From assembly GCA_038858525.1 (NCBI GenBank), contig JAWCFL010000001.1, positions 169,172-201,171 on the forward strand: a DNA stretch of 32,000 bases, given 5' to 3'. Positions within the stretch are counted from its first letter, which is position 1, and each line of letters begins with the position of its first letter. Position numbers and translations under genes: made by a program. The stretch is from Candidatus Jordarchaeales archaeon. GTDB lineage: Archaea > Asgardarchaeota > Jordiarchaeia > Jordiarchaeales > Freyrarchaeaceae. Under the pieces are notes generated by a model, which was not told the origin of the DNA, ran no database searches, and saw only the letters and a program-made list of their open reading frames with translations. Shown here piece by piece: positions 7,767 to 24,521 of this stretch.

Positions 7767-8828
7767 ATGACGGTGATTTATGTGCCCAAGATCATTCCGC
7801 CGGAGGGTTTGAAAAGAAAGGTTATCGTTAAGAGTGAAGAGGAAACCAGTGAGGAGTACGGTAAACGTCCTAGCGAGAGGAGTGTGGAGGAGCTTTTAGA
7901 GGGGTGCTTCGTGAACATAGATAAGCCGGCAGGCCCGACCAGCCACGAAGTTTCTTCCTGGGTAAGGAGAATTTTGGGTTGCTCAAAAACTGGACATGCA
8001 GGGACACTAGAACCCCTTCAGACTTTGAAGGGGTGGTGAAATCCTAAGGTTACTGGGGTCTTGCCGGTTGCGGTAGGGTCTGCTACAAAGGTTATACAGG
8101 CCCTTCACCTTATAGGGAAAGAATACGTTTGCGTTATGAGGCTCCACGAGGATGTTGAGGGCGAAAGGATCAAGAAGATCTGTAAGGAGTTTACTGGGCC
8201 AATCTATCAGAGGCCGCCGATACGTTCCTCGGTGAAGCGAAGGCTTAGAGTAAGACGGATATATTACCTCGACGTGCTTGAGGTGGAAGGAAGAAATGTC
8301 CTGCTGAGAATAGGATGCGAGTCTGGGACGTACATAAGGAAGCTTTGCCACGACATAGGGGAGGCGTTAGGGTGCGGCGCTCACATGCGCGAGCTTAGAA
8401 GAACTCGAAGTGGACCTTTTACCGAGAGAAACATGGTAACGCTACACGACTTAAAGGACGCCTATGTTTTTTGGAAGGAGGAGGGTGATGAAGCTCCCAT
8501 CAGAAAAGTGTTATTACCAGTAGAGGAGGGAGTGCAGCACTTGCCCAAGTTTTTCGTGAGGGACTCAGCTGTTGACGCCATATGTCATGGAGCGGACTTA
8601 GCTGTTCCCGGCGTAGTCAAGCTTGAAGATGGAGTGGAGAAGGGTGATGTGGTCGCGATCTTGACTCTTAAGGGTGAACTAGTCGCTCTGGGCGTTGCCC
8701 TGATGACCGTAGAGGAAGTTGTAAGAGAAAAGCGGGGAATAGCGGTTAAAACGACAAGAGTAATAATGAGCAAAGGAACTTACCCAAAACTCTGGAAAAG
8801 CAAGAAGAATAGCGGTTCAATCACGTAG
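7767..8828 (+). CDS. cbf5: H/ACA pseudouridine synthase Cbf5, two exons (7767-8010, 8041-8828), 343 aa spliced
   Basis: [12 protein letters not shown] and GHAGTL upstream; [20 protein letters not shown] and the PUA domain downstream. Both ORF-track pieces share a frame and are separated by a 30-nt hairpin insertion containing TGA. Removing it gives GHAGTLDPKVTG. Confidence 0.96.
8011..8040 (+). other. 30-nt BHB intron in cbf5 mRNA
   Basis: Exon helix GGGA/UCCU; central helix CACU/GGUG; bulges AG|A and AA|A; intron stem ACCCCUUCA/UGAAGGGGU with loop GACUU. It splits the catalytic Asp codon (G|AT). Confidence 0.95.
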
Positions 8829-8900: not shown

Positions 8901-9206
8901 TTGAAGTACCCTAAAGTTAGGCGAACTTATTGTCCACGATGTAAAACACACACAGAACACTCAGTTAGCGTCTATAAGAAAGGTAAGGATAGGGCACTGG
9001 CCGCAGGAGCTAGGCGCTATGCAAGGAAGAAGAGGGGTTATGGAAGCCAGCCTAAGCTCTTCTATGTCTTATAGAAGAGGGGTAAGCCCGTTCAGAGGGA
9101 GTTCGCGAAGACCACTAAGAAGGTTAGCTTTAAGCTTAAATGCAAGGAGTGCGGTCATACGCTCCACACTAAAGGTATCCGCCTCAAAAAGGCTGAAGCA
9201 ATTTAA
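8901..9206 (+). CDS. rpl44e: 50S ribosomal protein L44e (eL42), two exons (8901-9055, 9086-9206), 91 aa spliced; absent from the ORF track
   Basis: Hand translation from TTG 8901: [20 protein letters not shown]...GYGSQPK[insertion with TAG][24 protein letters not shown]...AI*. Canonical position before S27e and aIF2alpha. Confidence 0.95.
9056..9085 (+). other. 30-nt BHB-type intron in rpl44e mRNA
   Basis: Central helix GCCU/GGGU (two G-U pairs); bulges AA|G and AA|G; stem CUCUUCUAU/AUAGAAGAG with loop GUCUU; outer exon helix imperfect. Contains an in-frame TAG. Excision gives CCT AAG CCC GTT (PKPV). Confidence 0.88.
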
Positions 9207-17409: not shown

Positions 17410-18440
17410 TCACCTCTCACTCTCAACCCATGATACTTGAACCTCGTCAAGCCTCCACCTCGGCTTCACGTAGCTTTCCTCCACCCTTAGGATCCTTCCA
17501 CTAACATACTCTAATATTCCTGTCCAGGCGATCATTGCTCCATTATCTCCTGCCAACTGCTGGGGGACCACGTGGAAGGAGGCGCCATGCTCCTCAGCTA
17601 TCACTCTGATCATTTCTTGCAACCTCCTGTTTCTGCCGACACCTCCCGTCAGTAGAACGTCACCTTTACGCGTGTGCGCCAGAGCCCTCTCAGTCACTTC
17701 AGCCAGCATGGAGAAGCAGACTTCCTGAACGCTGTAGCACAGATCTTCAACTTTGCAACTACCAATCTTGCCAACCGCAGCGGTGTAAACCCCAGAATAG
17801 GAGAGGTCCATTCCCTTGACGACATATGGCAGCGGAATAAAAGTGCTTCCTTTACTCGCCAGCTCTTCGACCTTTGGCCCGCCAGGATGCTTTAAACCCA
17901 GCGCCCTAGCGAGCATGTCAAGCATGTTTCCGATGGCCAAGTCAAGCGTCTCCCCAAAGACACGGTACCTGCCTTTCTCGTAAGCTGCAACCAGAGTGTT
18001 TCCTCCAGAAACATACAACGTTAAGGGGTCTTCAACGTTCTCGGTGAGACGCCCAATTTCTATGTGGGCTAAACAGTGATTAACGCCCACTAAGGGAACG
18101 TTTAACGCCAGTGCAAGCGCTCTGGCAGCCGTCGCCACCGTTCTCAGGCAAGGGCCTTTGGGGGCTTCGCCAACCCCGGCCCTTGAGAGAACGCGACCAA
18201 GTTAACCTCACTTATTTTGATTCCGGCTTCGCTTATAGCTGAGGTGATCGCCTGCTTAACCGCGTTCGAGTGGTGCTGCGCGGCTTCCCTAGGGTGGATC
18301 CCGCCCTCAGCGGGCACATACTCGTCTCTGATGTTCGCTAGAATTTCTCCTTCACTACTTGCCACTCCTACACCTAAAGTGTGAGCTGTTCCTTCGAGCC
18401 CCATGCATAGCAGGCGGCGGCCGCCCAGTGCCTTCCTCAC
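17410..18440 (-). CDS. kae1: t6A synthase Kae1/TsaD, two exons (18440-18172, 18157-17410), 338 aa spliced
   Basis: GLEGTAHT, GGIHP and VAFSQGPGL in one frame; GPCLRTVATAAR, VNHCLAH, VSGGNT, GETLD and DNGAMIA in another. Removing 14 nt joins them. The GTG 18440 start is tentative. Confidence 0.94.
18158..18171 (-). other. 14-nt canonical BHB intron in kae1 mRNA
   Basis: Exon helix CAAGGGCC/GGCCCUUG (8 bp); central helix GGGG/CCCC; bulges UU|G and AA|A; mini stem GC-GAA-GC. Excision gives GGG TTA GGC CCT TGC (GLGPC) and removes the frameshift. Confidence 0.93.
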
Positions 18441-20387: not shown

Positions 20388-20801
20388 TTATAAAATTTCC
20401 CCATCAAGAAACAAACGTCTTCCCTGCCTTAGAAAGACCACAGGCACACCAACCCGCCTGAGACGCCTACGAAGCTTGGCGTCATTAGTCGCCACAACAC
20501 AACCCTCCCTCTTAGCATAATCGAAGACCGCGTCATCTACGCCCCCACCCTCCACCCCCGATGGGCAAACCCTAAACCCTCTTACCTCAACGAGAGACAA
20601 GGCAGCCCTTGCCAGTTTCCCTCTCCTCCCACCCTTCTCAGCCAGCTTCATCAACTCATCAATAACCCGATCCAAAACAATAACCTCATAGCGCCCACCA
20701 ATAACCCGACCAAGCTCTGAGAAGACATCCCATCCCAACAGAAACGGAGCAATCAAAAAGTTACTGTCAACTAAAACCCTAACATATGATCCCCCACCCA
20801 A
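20388..20801 (-). CDS. PIN-domain ribonuclease (Fcf1/Utp24-like)
   Basis: VLVDSNFL, VIDEL, VDD and VATND.KLRRRL motifs; conserved position after aIF2gamma. Confidence 0.9.
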   Translation of the reverse strand: MGGGSYVRVLVDSNFLIAPFLLGWDVFSELGRVIGGRYEVIVLDRVIDELMKLAEKGGRRGKLARAALSLVEVRGFRVCPSGVEGGGVDDAVFDYAKREGCVVATNDAKLRRRLRRVGVPVVFLRQGRRLFLDGEIL

Positions 20802-22093
20802 TAAGCCTCCACCTTCCCGAAACCATCCTGCTCACAGCCACCCTCTGACCATCCTCAGCACACACAGGACGCCGCAGCGCCACTTCAACCTCCCCACTCC
20901 TAATCGACGATACAACGCCCACTGTCACCGCCGACCCAACATTCAGCATTAAAGCCTCATTAACACGCACATTCTCCACCCTGGAAAGCTCCTCGCTTCC
21001 CACAACCCTATCCATCAGGTGAAGCTCAATACACAAATCCTCACGCACGGGAGGAAGGGTCCCGGGAGAACCTACAACGTTCCCAATCAAACCATCAGCC
21101 TTCGTCAAAGAGGGGTCCAGCCGCGTACCAACACCAATCAACCCACCTGGCAAAGCTTCCTCAAGCCACACGTCACCAGCATGCAAACTTACAACGTCAG
21201 CATAAATAGGCTCAAACTTACCTTTAACAGCAACTCCCGGACGAATTTCAACCTCATCCCCAACCCTAACTCTACCTTGAATAATGGTTCCACCAATAAC
21301 GCCCCCAACAAGATCCTCAGGCCTAGTTCCCGGCTTATTCACATCAAATGACCTCGCCACATACATCCTCAAAGGCTTACCCGGGTCTCTAACCGGATTA
21401 GGAATATGCTCTTCCATGAACTGCAACAAAGCATCCAAATTAACACCAAAAACAGCCGAAACAGGAACAATAGGAGCATCCTCAGCAAAACTACCACCAA
21501 TAAACCTCTTAATCTGTCTAAAGTTTTCTAATGCCTTCTCCCTAGAAACAAGCTCAACCTTATTCTGAACAATAACAACATTCCTCACACCAATAATCTC
21601 CAAAGCCGCAAAGTGCTCTCTAGTCTGCGGCTGAGGGCAAAACTCATTAGCAGCAACAACAAAAACACAACCATCCATCAAAGACGCACCACTAATCATG
21701 GTCGCCATTAACCGCTCATGACCAGGACTATCCACAAAGCTGACCTTCCTCACAAACTCAGCTTCACTCCCACACTTAGGGCACTTCCACCCCCCAGCCA
21801 TAGCCAAAGTAAAGTAGCAGTCAGGAGGCGGGCAAGATGGACACTTCAAAATAATAGCATCAGCATAACCCAACTTAATCGTAATACCACGACGCTTCTC
21901 CTCACTATGACGATCAGTCCACACACCAGCCAAAGCCTGCACAAGCGTGGTTCTTGGCCCGCGAGAGAGACACTCCCAACGGATTGCCATGATCCACGTC
22001 TCTAGCACCAGCTGATCAACAGCTGGCGAGTCCAGCTGTTCCCACAGAAACTAAAGCCTGCGTACTCATGGCCTTCTTATAAGCTTCGTCCAA
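20779..22093 (-). CDS. eif2g: Translation initiation factor aIF-2 gamma, three exons (22093-22030, 21999-21984, 21952-20779), 417 aa spliced
   Basis: TDRHSEEKRRGITIKLGY, FVDSPGHE, CPQPQTREH and NKVE motifs. The P-loop missing from the ORF track is rebuilt as GTAGHVDHGKTTLVQAL after removing two insertions. TTG 22093 follows an SD GGGGG. Confidence 0.95.
21953..21983 (-). other. 31-nt BHB intron 2 of aIF2gamma mRNA
   Basis: Central helix UGGC/GCCA; bulges AA|U and AG|A; stem CCGU-U-GGGAG/CUCUC-GCGG with loop UGUCU; outer helix CGUGG/CCACG. It splits the P-loop Lys codon (AA|A). Confidence 0.92.
22000..22029 (-). other. 30-nt BHB-type intron 1 of aIF2gamma mRNA
   Basis: Central helix CUGG/CUAG; bulges AC|U and AG|A; stem CGCCAGCUG/CAGCUGGUG with loop UUGAU; in-frame TGA; outer exon helix weak. 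It splits the His codon (C|AC) of GHVDHGK. Confidence 0.9.
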
Positions 22094-22136
22094 ACAAGAA
22101 CCCCCAAGAGCTTTTAGGAAAGTCTTCACGAAAGCG

Positions 22137-22152
22137 TTATTTAAAAGTTTCC
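22137..22152 (-). promoter_or_regulatory. Probable BRE-TATA promoter of the aIF2gamma operon
   Basis: The minus strand reads GGAAAC-TTTTAAATAA about 44 nt upstream of the TTG start. Confidence 0.6.
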
Positions 22153-22500
22153 AGCGAAAGGATGAGGAAGGGTAGATGGTGGCGATACGAACAGTCAGAG
22201 CGGCGGGTGTTTGTTTATGTGTTTTGGCGGAGGCGGGATGTCGGGGGTTCTAAAAAATATGTCTATTTGTGTGATGAGAAACTTGGGGATGAGGAGCTTG
22301 CTGATTAGGGGTTTCGTTACCGGGAGGAGAGAGTTATTGTGATGAGCTAGGTCTTTACGACGGGGCCACCCAGCGTTTACCCGTAAACCTTCTGGGAGCT
22401 GGGAAGCTTGGTTGGAGCTTCTCAGTTTGCGTTCCGCTTCTTGGATGCAAGGGAGCGTCGATGAATGTGGTGTTAATTCTATAAGCTTGCCCCCCCTCTT

Positions 22501-23219: not shown

Positions 23220-24521
23220 TTGAGCGAAAAGAAGCCACACCTAAATATTGTAGTTATTGGGCATGTTGACCATGGGAAGTCGACTATGATGGGGCATTTG
23301 TTGTATTTGACTAAGGCGATTGATGAACGTACGATTAAGCAGTATGAGGAAGAGGCGGAGAAAATTGGTAAGGGTAGTTTTAAGTTTGCGTGGGTTATGG
23401 ATAAGTTGAAGGAGGAGAGGGAGCGTGGTTTAACTATTGATCTTTCGTTTTGGAAGTTTGAGACGGAGAAGTATTACTTTACAATTATTGATGCTCCGGG
23501 GCATAAAGACTTTATTAAGAACATGATTACGGGTACTAGTCAGGCGGATGCGGCGGTGCTGGTGGTTTCTGCTAGGAAGGGGGAGTTTGAGGCAGGTATT
23601 GGTCCGGGTGGTCAGACGAGGGAGCATGCATACTTGGCGTTTACGTTGGGTGTTAATCAGTTGGTTGTCGCTATTAATAAGATGGATGATGCTAGTGTTG
23701 GCTGGAGTAAGAATAGGTATGATGAGGTGAGGAAGGAAGTCGAGGGGTTGTTGAGGCAGGTTGGTTATAAAGTTGAGGAGATTCCGTTTGTTCCTGTATC
23801 TGCTTGGTTTGGTGATAATCTTATTGAGCGGAGCGGAAAGATGCCGTGGTATAGTGGGCCGACGCTTGTTGAAGCGTTGAATAGTTTGAAGGTGCCACCT
23901 AAGCCTGTGGATAAGCCGTTAAGGATTCCGGTGCAGGATGTTTACAGTATTACTGGTGTTGGGACAGTGCCGGTTGGCAGGGTTGAGACTGGGGTGTTAA
24001 AGGTTGGGGATACTGTGGTTTTCCAGCCTGCTAACGTGAAGGGTGAGGTGAAGTCGATCGAGATGCATCATGAGCCGCTTAGCGAGGCGGTTCCAGGGGA
24101 TAATATCGGGTTTAACGTGCGTGGGATTTCGAAGAAGGATATTAAGCGTGGGGATGTTGCTGGTCATCCAGATAAGCCGCCTACTGTGGCTGAGCGGTTT
24201 GTGGGACAGATAATCGTTATTCAGCATCCTACGGCGATTGCTGCGGGTTACACGCCAGTGATTCATGCTCACACGGCTCAGGTGGCGTGTAGGTTTGCTA
24301 GGCTTGTTGCTAAGCTGGATAGGCGGACTGGTCAGGTGGTGGAGGAGAACCCGAGCTACATTAAGCGTGGTGACGTTGCGCTGGTGGAGTTTGAGCCTGT
24401 GAGGCCTATGGTGGTGGAGCCCTTCAAGGAGATTCCGCAGTTAGGGCGTTTTGCTGTGCGTGACAGTGATTACACTGTTGCGGTTGGTGTTGTTAGGGAG
24501 GTTAAGCCGCGCGCCGGCTAA
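23220..24521 (+). CDS. tuf: Translation elongation factor EF-1 alpha
   Basis: [47 protein letters not shown] and LGRFAVRD motifs. Confidence 0.98.

What the first reader, a model, noticed from the sequence alone, without database searches (positions are those of the whole stretch)
21953..22029. Two introns and a 16-nt micro-exon build the GTP-binding P-loop of aIF2gamma
Seen: the exon 21999-21984 (ACGTGGATCATGGCAA) lies between a 30-nt intron with an in-frame TGA and a 31-nt frameshifting intron. Only removal of both yields GTAGHVDHGKTTLVQAL. The outer helix of intron 2 (CGUGG/CCACG) uses micro-exon bases next to the 3' bulge of intron 1. Established: GHVDHGKT is the G1 motif of translational GTPases, and the same motif is uninterrupted in EF-1alpha in this window. 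Inference: this is a two-intron archaeal mRNA, possibly spliced in a fixed order, which makes initiation depend on EndA activity.
Basis: partly seen in the sequence, partly recalled or inferred. Interest (0 to 1): 0.92.

Follow-up and report, generated by a model that had tools for sequence, protein, structure and literature searches.

The report
Two tRNA-type introns split aIF2-gamma
The only gene for the GTP-binding subunit of translation initiation factor 2 in this Asgard archaeon (Jordarchaeum) is broken inside its GTP-binding loop by two tiny tRNA-type introns around a 16-base exon. Its message almost certainly has to be cut and rejoined twice by the tRNA-splicing enzymes, a kind of mRNA splicing published for only two archaeal genes.

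Summary
On the minus strand, exon 1 (22093/22069-22030), a 30-nt insert (22029-22000), a 16-nt exon (21999-21984), a 31-nt insert (21983-21953) and exon 3 (21952-20779) give an intact aIF2-gamma only if both inserts are removed.

Both inserts fold as relaxed bulge-helix-bulge (HBh') introns. The bulge-cleavage rule predicts exactly the junctions that rebuild GHVDHGKT.

Six independent Jordarchaeaceae sequences carry intron 2 and three carry intron 1. They show compensatory changes in the helices (94% of cells paired, against 51% or less for slid controls). All changes in the micro-exon are synonymous. All 26 Asgard sequences examined from other families are uninterrupted.

The gene is single-copy and under strong purifying selection (dN/dS 0.05-0.08). 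The genome encodes EndA alpha and beta, RtcB and archease.

I found no spliced RNA: no RNA-derived sequence was available to me for this gene. A fixed splicing order is not indicated, because both motifs can form at once.

The same window also holds BHB introns in cbf5, rpl44e and kae1. This scan has already noted mRNA introns elsewhere in this genome and in other Asgard genomes. This case is therefore one instance, though an extreme one, of a lineage-wide and so far unpublished phenomenon.

The parts
22137..22152 (-). Archaeal promoter (BRE-like GGAAAC plus TATA box TTTTAAATAA)
   Evidence: Read. The block GCTGGAAACTTTTAAATA is conserved in all six family sequences in the alignment. The promoter function is inferred.
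22101..22105 (-). Shine-Dalgarno-like GGGGG, 8 nt upstream of the TTG start
   Evidence: GGGGG or GGAGG is conserved at this distance from the TTG in all six sequences.
22030..22093 (-). Exon 1 (64 nt from TTG 22093; 40 nt if translation starts at ATG 22069). It ends after the first base (C) of the His codon of GHVDHGKT. Its last bases CUGG-AC supply the 5' strand of the central helix and two bulge bases of intron 1.
   Evidence: The spliced N-termini of all relatives align (LxEAYxKAMxTQxLVSxGTAGH).
22000..22029 (-). Intron 1, 30 nt, phase 1, with an in-frame TGA. Layout 1+9+5+9+4+2: a 9-bp inner helix CGCCAGCUG/CAGCUGGUG, loop UUGAU, a 4-nt segment CUAG that pairs with exon CUGG, and bulges AC|U and AG|A.
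   Evidence: It is present with homologous sequence in G002 (33 nt) and L098 (34 nt). There the central helix is CCGG/CCGG, a compensatory U-A to C-G change.
21984..21999 (-). 16-nt micro-exon encoding (H)VDHG(K). Base 1 lies in the 3' bulge of intron 1. Bases 2-6 (CGUGG) pair with exon 3 CCACG. Bases 11-14 (UGGC) form the central helix of intron 2. Bases 15-16 lie in the 5' bulge of intron 2.
   Evidence: All differences among the six sequences are synonymous in the spliced frame (CAC/CAT, GTG/GTT/GTA/GTC, GAT/GAC, CAT/CAC, GGC/GGT).
21953..21983 (-). Intron 2, 31 nt, phase 2 (AA|A Lys codon), frameshifting. Central helix UGGC/GCCA, bulges AA|U and AG|A, and an inner 4+5-bp stem with one bulged U and loop UGUCU.
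   Evidence: Unconstrained minimum-free-energy folding recovers the central helix, bulge and inner helix in 5 of 6 species. The intron is present in all six Jordarchaeaceae sequences at 29-31 nt. Covariation was counted.
20779..21952 (-). Exon 3 (390 codons plus stop), the body of aIF2-gamma. Its bases 3-7 (CCACG, 21950-21946) form the outer helix with the micro-exon.
   Evidence: NCBIfam equivalogs NF003077 (E 1.1e-178) and TIGR03680 (588 bits, cut-off 514.5). dN/dS is 0.05-0.08 against four relatives.

Best explanation
The single aIF2-gamma gene of this Candidatus Jordarchaeum genome (Asgard archaea) contains two archaeal bulge-helix-bulge introns of the relaxed HBh' type. They are 30 and 31 nt long and are separated by a 16-nt exon, all inside the codons of the G1/P-loop motif. 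The proposed mechanism is inferred from the known archaeal pathway. The heterotetrameric (alpha-beta)2 splicing endonuclease EndA cuts after the second base of each 3-nt bulge at four sites. RtcB, with archease, then joins exon 1 to the micro-exon and the micro-exon to exon 3, giving a 417-aa protein (409 aa from the ATG) that carries GHVDHGKT. Unspliced or half-spliced mRNA yields only short peptides. Intron 2 arose in the Jordarchaeaceae stem. Intron 1 is younger and patchy within the genus, and in this genome it lies on a 5' gene segment that looks recombinant. No fixed splicing order is required, but cutting both introns before any ligation would release a free 16-mer. Shown here: the anatomy, the junction prediction, conservation and covariation, single-copy status, purifying selection and the presence of the enzymes. 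Inferred: that cleavage and ligation actually happen on this mRNA.
For: Removing both inserts, and only both, restores the frame and the P-loop. In all nine intron copies from six independent assemblies the central helix is 4/4 paired and is followed by a 3-nt 5' bulge and an inner helix of at least 4 bp. These lie in the exact register that places the cuts at the needed junctions; L098 intron 1 needs a 4-nt 3' bulge. The background rate of this motif is 4.5e-4 per fixed site. For intron 2, 94.4% of cells are paired, against 33-51% for slid controls. Four pairs changed on both sides, and the covariation score is 0.406 against 0.204 for shuffles (0/500). In the central helix of intron 1, U-A changes to C-G at a synonymous Ala codon position. 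All micro-exon substitutions are synonymous in the spliced frame. All 26 Asgard sequences from other families have an uninterrupted GHVDHGKT at the same place, and three Jordarchaeaceae sequences lack intron 1 with exactly the predicted exon 1/exon 2 joint. There is one aIF2-gamma copy in the genome (92.7% complete) and one in the 8-contig, 95%-complete sister G002. dN/dS is 0.05-0.08. The same read-through ORF occurs on 16 contigs from NCBI, JGI, Logan and ENA. The genome encodes EndA alpha (Y-H-K present; best PDB match is the Aeropyrum pernix heterotetramer chain 3p1z_B at 1.6e-48), a beta-like paralogue without the His, RtcB and archease. The same window holds further BHB introns in cbf5, rpl44e and kae1. 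The lineage is published as having the most heavily interrupted tRNA genes known (PMC11291895; bioRxiv 10.64898/2026.10.13.758758).
Against: There is no RNA-level evidence for this gene. No protein with the spliced N-terminus, full-length or fragmentary, exists in the 15-billion-protein collection. The exon-exon outer helix next to the 3' bulges is almost absent (1 bp for intron 1, 0 bp for intron 2). The 3' cut sites therefore lie in a junction or a 4x4 internal loop rather than a closed 3-nt bulge. After cleavage exon 1 has no obvious base-paired tether to the micro-exon. The thermodynamic probability of the full motifs is low (about 1-20%). A competing hairpin (exon ACAGCUGG with intron CCAGCUGU) can sequester the 5' site of intron 1. 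The CGUGG/CCACG helix is mismatched in 2 of 6 sequences.
Confidence: 0.88

Rival explanations
1. The gene is a decaying pseudogene whose P-loop region has accumulated two insertions. aIF2-gamma function would then be supplied by a copy missing from the assembly.
For: The genome is only 92.7% complete. The unspliced reading has a stop and a frameshift.
Against: Only one aIF2-gamma match exists in this genome and in the 95%-complete, 8-contig sister genome, which has the same two inserts. dN/dS is 0.05-0.08 over 390 codons. Exon 1 and the micro-exon change only synonymously in the spliced frame. The inserts keep a BHB fold through compensatory changes. The promoter, Shine-Dalgarno sequence and start codon are conserved.
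Confidence: 0.03
2. The inserts are bypassed during translation by ribosome hopping or programmed frameshifting, not removed from the RNA.
For: The inserts are short hairpins, and translational bypass of a 50-nt hairpin-containing gap is known in phage T4 gene 60 (my own knowledge).
Against: This would need two separate, precise non-canonical events 16 nt apart. There are no matched take-off and landing codons. The conserved features are exactly those of EndA substrates: a 4-bp helix between exon and intron 3' end, 3-nt bulges, and cuts after bulge base 2. The same architecture interrupts cbf5, whose BHB intron is experimentally established in Crenarchaeota, in this very window (PMC2738675).
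Confidence: 0.03
3. The inserts are assembly or sequencing artefacts, or strain chimeras.
For: The genome is a metagenome-assembled genome in 63 contigs.
Against: The read-through ORF that includes intron 2 is found identically on 16 contigs from four independent sources. Orthologous inserts occur at the same positions in five other assemblies at 80-91% protein identity.
Confidence: 0.01
4. The introns are real and spliced, and in addition the tandem arrangement acts as a regulatory gate. Ordered or rate-limiting double splicing, modulated by the competing hairpin at the 5' site of intron 1, would tie aIF2-gamma supply to EndA/RtcB capacity.
For: The intron 1 motif is 6-30 times more probable in the model while intron 2 is present at 37-60 C. 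A competing 8-bp hairpin exists in this genome, and a 9-bp one in L098. In this lineage almost every tRNA also needs the same enzymes (PMC11291895).
Against: The competing hairpin is absent in G002. Intron 1 is absent from half of the family. At 75 C the modelled order preference vanishes. Similar introns sit in many unrelated genes, so no gene-specific regulation is needed to explain this one.
Confidence: 0.12

Closest known systems
BHB intron in the cbf5 pre-mRNA of Crenarchaeota (Watanabe 2002; Yoshinari 2006; Yokobori 2009, PMC2738675; reviewed in PMC10485636)
   Same: Both are short, protein-spliced introns inside a protein-coding sequence. Both have a relaxed BHB motif, occur in organisms with a heterotetrameric (alpha-beta)2 EndA, and show gain and loss among close relatives. 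A cbf5 intron is also present in this window at 8011-8040.
   Different: The gene and the phylum differ (Asgard, not Crenarchaeota). Here there are two introns in one mRNA only 16 nt apart, an internal micro-exon that is almost wholly built into the two splice motifs, and essentially no outer exon-exon helix.
HVO_1309 mRNA of Haloferax volcanii, cut by EndA at a BHB (Schwarz 2020, PMC7714728; PMC10485636)
   Same: It is an EndA substrate in an mRNA, with the spliced form seen in RNA-seq.
   Different: It is a single element in an organism with a homodimeric EndA, and it does not rebuild a catalytic motif. The case here is an obligatory repair of the coding sequence.
Multi-intron tRNA genes of Jordiarchaeia, Freyrarchaeaceae and Atabeyarchaeia (PMC11291895; bioRxiv 10.64898/2026.10.13.758758) and of Thermoproteales
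   Same: The lineage and the enzymes are the same. Both have several BHB introns per transcript at non-canonical positions, very short exons, and repeated gains and losses.
   Different: In those cases the substrate is a tRNA whose folded body holds the exons together. Here it is an mRNA with no such scaffold, and neither paper reports introns in protein-coding genes.
IRE1-dependent unconventional splicing of HAC1/XBP1 mRNA in eukaryotes
   Same: Both are spliceosome-independent mRNA splicing with structure-defined cut sites. Both produce 2',3'-cyclic phosphate and 5'-OH ends (my own knowledge). In metazoa the ends are joined by RtcB. In both, removing a small intron changes the reading frame.
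   Different: The endonuclease is different (IRE1 kinase/RNase, twin stem-loops). That system has a single intron and is a regulated stress response rather than constitutive gene repair.

Membership tests
Archaeal BHB (EndA/RtcB-spliced) intron | A 4-bp central helix formed by the last exon bases before the 5' bulge and the intron's 3'-proximal tetramer | tested here: met
   The helix is 4/4 paired in all nine copies, with 100% of cells paired and one compensated pair. L098 intron 1 needs a 1-nt register shift, that is, a 4-nt 3' bulge.
Archaeal BHB (EndA/RtcB-spliced) intron | Two 3-nt bulges on opposite strands, each cut after its second base, closed by an intron helix (h') and an exon helix (h) | tested here: inconclusive
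   The 5' bulges are closed on both sides by H and h'. The 3' bulges are closed by H only. The adjacent exon-exon helix is 1 bp for intron 1 and 0 bp for intron 2. For intron 2 a 5-bp helix follows after a 4x4 loop; for intron 1 the same CGUGG/CCACG helix abuts the bulge across a strand junction. This fits the relaxed HBh' class, not the strict hBHBh' class.
Archaeal BHB (EndA/RtcB-spliced) intron | Junctions predicted from the motif restore the functional product | tested here: met
   The bulge rule gives exactly the joints C|AC and AA|A that rebuild GHVDHGKT. No neighbouring junction gives the same product.
Archaeal BHB (EndA/RtcB-spliced) intron | Structure maintained by covariation in relatives, and intron-less orthologues with the predicted joint | tested here: met
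   One search gives 94.4% of cells paired, four compensated pairs, and 0/500 shuffles reaching the score. In some searches uninterrupted sequences from other families and three sequences lacking intron 1 show the predicted joints.
Archaeal BHB (EndA/RtcB-spliced) intron | A broad-specificity splicing endonuclease and an RNA ligase are encoded | tested here: met
   EndA alpha and a beta-like paralogue, RtcB and archease are all present.
Archaeal BHB (EndA/RtcB-spliced) intron | Excision and exon ligation observed in RNA | not testable with these tools
   No spliced product was found via the protein collections.
aIF2-gamma (TIGR03680 / NF003077 equivalog) | Full-length match above the curated cut-off, and an intact G1 motif GHVDHGKT | tested here: met
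   Exon 3 alone scores 588 bits (cut-off 514.5), aligned from profile position 19 onward. The missing 18-22 N-terminal profile positions, including G1, are supplied by exon 1 plus the micro-exon after in-silico splicing.

The most novel reading that the evidence does not exclude
The tandem introns would be a checkpoint, not just tolerated insertions. The mRNA of the GTPase that delivers initiator tRNA can only be completed by the same EndA/RtcB machinery that must mature nearly every tRNA in this lineage. Translation-initiation capacity would then be coupled to tRNA-splicing capacity. The competing 5' hairpin and the shared CGUGG/CCACG helix would set an order (intron 1 before intron 2) that keeps the 16-nt exon from being lost. 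A second strand of this reading is that such introns spread between Jordarchaeum species by homologous recombination of short gene segments, as the mosaic 5' end suggests.
Probability: 0.12. Interest if true: 0.9.

Novelty: new variant of a known kind. Interest (0 to 1): 0.78.

Why it matters
Published work documents protein-dependent (BHB) splicing of archaeal mRNAs for cbf5 and one Haloferax transcript only (PMC10485636). Here an essential, universally conserved translation factor of an Asgard archaeon needs two such splicing events, with a 16-nt internal exon, to encode its nucleotide-binding loop.

Together with the cbf5, rpl44e and kae1 introns in the same 32-kb window, this indicates that in Jordarchaeia interrupted protein genes are common rather than a curiosity. 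This lineage belongs to the closest prokaryotic relatives of eukaryotes.

That makes several questions testable:
- How EndA and RtcB keep mRNA exons together without a tRNA body.
- How splicing is reconciled with coupled transcription and translation.
- How introns are gained, lost and exchanged.
- Whether genome annotation of these lineages systematically truncates or misses genes. All public protein records of this gene are N-terminally truncated at 387-410 aa.

Tried and rejected
1. Search for RNA evidence. I looked for proteins with the spliced N-terminus in three ways: full-length hits and 90% clusters, and a search for 60-193-aa fragments covering the start of exon 3. Only unspliced, truncated gene calls exist for the family, and no fragment closer than 70% identity was found.

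2. Genome-wide census of mRNA introns, combining the HBh' motif with an ORF-joining test. It was uninformative. The ORF-joining fraction was 4.1-4.6% for real pairing and 4.7-5.3% for a mirror-pair control. Chance motifs that bridge neighbouring genes dominate, and the control itself is inflated by low-complexity runs. A census needs homology information.

3. Are the introns copies of a mobile or repeated element? No. blastn-short found only the self-hits in the genome.

4. Known RNA families over the locus. None were found.

5. Is intron 1 explained by a single gain on a clean tree? No. The carriers are not a clade on the exon 3 DNA tree (AU p = 0.0036), though the protein tree cannot reject it (p = 0.22). 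The mosaic 5' end explains the conflict better than two independent precise losses.

6. Fixed splicing order. It is not supported.

Full report
**What is there**

Read on the minus strand, the locus starts with a conserved archaeal promoter block (GGAAAC-TTTTAAATAA, 22152-22137). A GGGGG Shine-Dalgarno follows at 22105-22101, then a TTG at 22093 and an ATG at 22069. The reading frame runs to 22030 and ends with ...GTAG plus the first base of a His codon.

Next come 30 nt (22029-22000) containing an in-frame TGA, then 16 nt (21999-21984, ACGTGGATCATGGCAA). After these come 31 nt (21983-21953), and then an open frame of 390 codons to the stop at 20779.

Removing only the first insert, only the second, or the whole 77 nt gives a premature stop or a frameshift. 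Removing both gives a 1230-nt frame from the ATG that reads MSTQALVSVGTAGHVDHGKTTLVQAL....

Exon 3 alone matches the aIF2-gamma equivalogs NF003077 (E 1.1e-178) and TIGR03680 (588 bits, cut-off 514.5), starting at profile position 19-23. What is missing from it is exactly the N-terminus and the G1 motif. EF-1alpha at 23220-24521 has the motif uninterrupted.

**Are the inserts BHB introns?**

I applied the archaeal rule as described in bioRxiv 10.64898/2026.10.13.758758. [quoted passage not shown] From the geometry of the canonical tRNA 37/38 intron I derived that each cut falls after the second bulge base.

- **Intron 1:** exon CUGG pairs with intron CUAG (4/4). The 5' bulge is AC|U, followed by a 9-bp inner helix (CGCCAGCUG/CAGCUGGUG) with loop UUGAU. 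The 3' bulge is AG|A.
- **Intron 2:** micro-exon UGGC pairs with intron GCCA (4/4). The 5' bulge is AA|U, the inner stem is 4+5 bp with one bulged U and loop UGUCU, and the 3' bulge is AG|A.

The predicted cuts coincide exactly with the only junctions that rebuild the P-loop. A motif of this stringency at a fixed position and length occurs at about 4.5e-4 in this genome.

Unconstrained minimum-free-energy folding recovers the central helix, bulge and inner helix of intron 2 in five of six species, and of intron 1 in G002.

The weak point is the exon-exon outer helix. Next to the 3' bulges it is 1 bp for intron 1 and 0 bp for intron 2. These are therefore relaxed HBh' motifs, not strict hBHBh'. 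A 5-bp helix, CGUGG (micro-exon bases 2-6) with CCACG (exon 3 bases 3-7), encloses the intron 2 motif across a 4x4 loop. Almost every base of the micro-exon thus has a structural role as well as a coding role.

**Comparative evidence**

The organism is a Candidatus Jordarchaeum (Asgard). The 88%-identical orthologue is titled Ca. Jordarchaeum sp. LHC_1308.

I assembled six distinct family sequences from whole-genome searches and from the protein collection with contig look-ups.

| Sequences | Introns present |
|---|---|
| This genome, G002, Logan contig L098 | Both introns |
| G003, Logan contig L096, G004 (sister genus) | Intron 2 only; exon 1/exon 2 joint exactly as predicted |
| 26 Asgard sequences from other families, including six Freyrarchaeaceae | None; GHVDHGKT uninterrupted |

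On an alignment of the six intron 2 regions, 94.4% of cells in the named structure form standard pairs, against 33-51% when the partners are slid. Four pairs carry changes on both sides. The covariation score is 0.406 against 0.204 for shuffles (0 of 500 reach it).

The compensated pairs include synonymous codon positions of the exon:
- His3/intron, U-A to C-G through U-G.
- In intron 1, Ala3/intron, U-A to C-G.
- The third base of the Val codon against the third base of the first Thr codon in the outer helix (G-C, U-A, A-U). Two of the six sequences are mismatched there.

All substitutions in the micro-exon are synonymous in the spliced frame. Six related sequences are few and not independent, so these numbers are supportive rather than formal proof.

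**Not a pseudogene or an artefact**

- The genome (92.7% complete) has one aIF2-gamma locus. So does the 95%-complete, 8-contig sister genome, which carries both introns.
- dN/dS of exon 3 against four relatives is 0.05-0.08.
- The unspliced read-through ORF is found identically on 16 contigs from NCBI, JGI, Logan and ENA.
- All public gene calls for the family are truncated at 387-410 aa and start inside or after the introns. Automatic annotation therefore misses the true N-terminus.

**Machinery**

The genome encodes:
- an EndA catalytic subunit (191 aa, with Tyr, His and Lys in the conserved motifs; its best solved relative is the Aeropyrum pernix heterotetramer chain 3p1z_B, E 1.6e-48);
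- a second, beta-like paralogue (198 aa) without the His;
- one RtcB;
- one archease.

An (alpha-beta)2 enzyme is the type known to accept relaxed motifs (PMC5829648; PMC10485636).

**Order of splicing**

The two motifs are structurally compatible and can form together. In partition-function calculations, the probability of the intron 2 motif is unchanged by removing intron 1. The intron 1 motif is 6-30 times more probable while intron 2 is present at 37-60 C, and equal at 75 C.

A competing hairpin (exon ACAGCUGG with intron CCAGCUGU, with the 5' splice site in its loop) exists here and in L098 but not in G002. This is model-level evidence only, so I do not consider a fixed order supported.

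One real mechanistic puzzle remains. After cleavage exon 1 has no base-paired tether to the micro-exon, and simultaneous cutting of all four sites would free a 16-mer held only by 5 bp to exon 3.

**History**

- Exon 3 DNA and the 1.45 kb downstream both give the tree (G004,((G002,L098),(L096,(G000,G003)))). G000+G003 has 99/99 support downstream.
- The intron 1 carriers are rejected as a clade on DNA (AU p = 0.0036) but not on protein (p = 0.22).
- In the 200 columns before exon 3, this genome sides with G002/L098 at 15 sites against 3. In exon 3 it sides with G003/L096 at 64 sites against 15 (Fisher p = 2e-6).

The 5' end of the gene, including intron 1 and the G002-type version of intron 2, therefore looks recombinant. 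This accounts for the patchy distribution of intron 1 without two precise losses. That reading is an inference from one short region.

**Context and novelty**

In this same window I confirmed three more introns:
- a canonical 30-nt BHB intron in the catalytic Asp codon of cbf5 (8011-8040);
- a 30-nt intron in rpl44e (9056-9085);
- a 14-nt intron in kae1 (18171-18158).

Intron 1, the cbf5 intron and the rpl44e intron share the layout 1+9+5+9+4+2 = 30 nt without sequence similarity. None is repeated elsewhere in the genome.

Earlier notes of this scan report further mRNA introns in this genome and multi-intron mRNAs in other Asgard genomes, some with RNA support. Apart from the three introns above, which I read myself, I did not check those notes, and I treat them as leads only.

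In the literature I could search, archaeal mRNA splicing by EndA is documented only for cbf5 and HVO_1309 (PMC10485636; PMC2738675). The two papers on the intron-rich tRNA genes of this lineage do not mention protein-coding genes.

I therefore class the finding as a new variant of a known kind. The mechanism is the known one. The new features are the gene, a tandem arrangement with a 16-nt internal exon, and an Asgard host.

Confidence that both inserts are removed from the mRNA by the tRNA-splicing pathway is about 0.88. The missing piece is direct RNA evidence.

Noticed in passing
window 8011-8040 (+), within cbf5 7767-8828: cbf5 is split by a 30-nt canonical hBHBh' intron inside the catalytic Asp codon (G|AT). 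The central helix is CACU/GGUG, the inner stem is 9 bp and the exon helix is 4 bp. In-silico splicing gives a 344-aa Cbf5 with GHAGTLDPKVTG.
   Followed up: partly
window 9056-9085 (+): A 30-nt BHB intron with a 9-bp stem interrupts the Lys codon (AA|G) of GYGSQPK|PVQ in ribosomal protein eL42 (rpl44e). ORF callers miss the gene.
   Followed up: partly
window 18158-18171 (-): A 14-nt mini-intron (GGCGAAGCCCCCAA) lies in kae1. It has an all-G-C central helix GGGG/CCCC and an 8-bp exon helix. Splicing creates TT|A and restores GPGLGPCLR.
   Followed up: partly
window 22000-22029, 8011-8040, 9056-9085, 21953-21983: Three unrelated mRNA introns share one architecture (1+9+5+9+4+2 = 30 nt, with a 5-nt loop). 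aIF2-gamma intron 2 has the same architecture plus one bulged U. They have no sequence similarity and no other copies in the genome, which suggests a size and shape optimum or a common mode of origin.
   Followed up: partly
window 21953-22250 (-) compared with L003, L004, L096, L098: The 5' 200-250 nt of the gene (promoter, exon 1 and the introns) is closest to the G002/L098 lineage. Exon 3 and the downstream genes are closest to G003/L096 (Fisher p = 2e-6). This looks like a recombination breakpoint at the introns.
   Followed up: partly
window 22019-22039 (-): Exon 1 ACAGCUGG can pair with intron 1 CCAGCUGU, an 8-bp hairpin with loop ACUCG that holds the 5' splice site. This hairpin excludes the BHB fold. 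A 9-bp equivalent forms in L098 and none forms in G002.
   Followed up: partly
window 22247-22297 (+): There is a weak C/D-box sRNA-like match (Rfam SNORD38, 21 bits, gathering score 44). A GUGAUGA box and a downstream CUGA lie in the spacer between aIF2-gamma and EF-1alpha.
   Followed up: no
protein records P0001, P0003, P0004, P0005, P0121, P0124: All public gene calls of Jordarchaeaceae aIF2-gamma are N-terminally truncated or start inside an intron, and so lack the P-loop. In L098 intron 2 is 30 nt without a stop, so the call reads through it and inserts 10 residues.
   Followed up: yes
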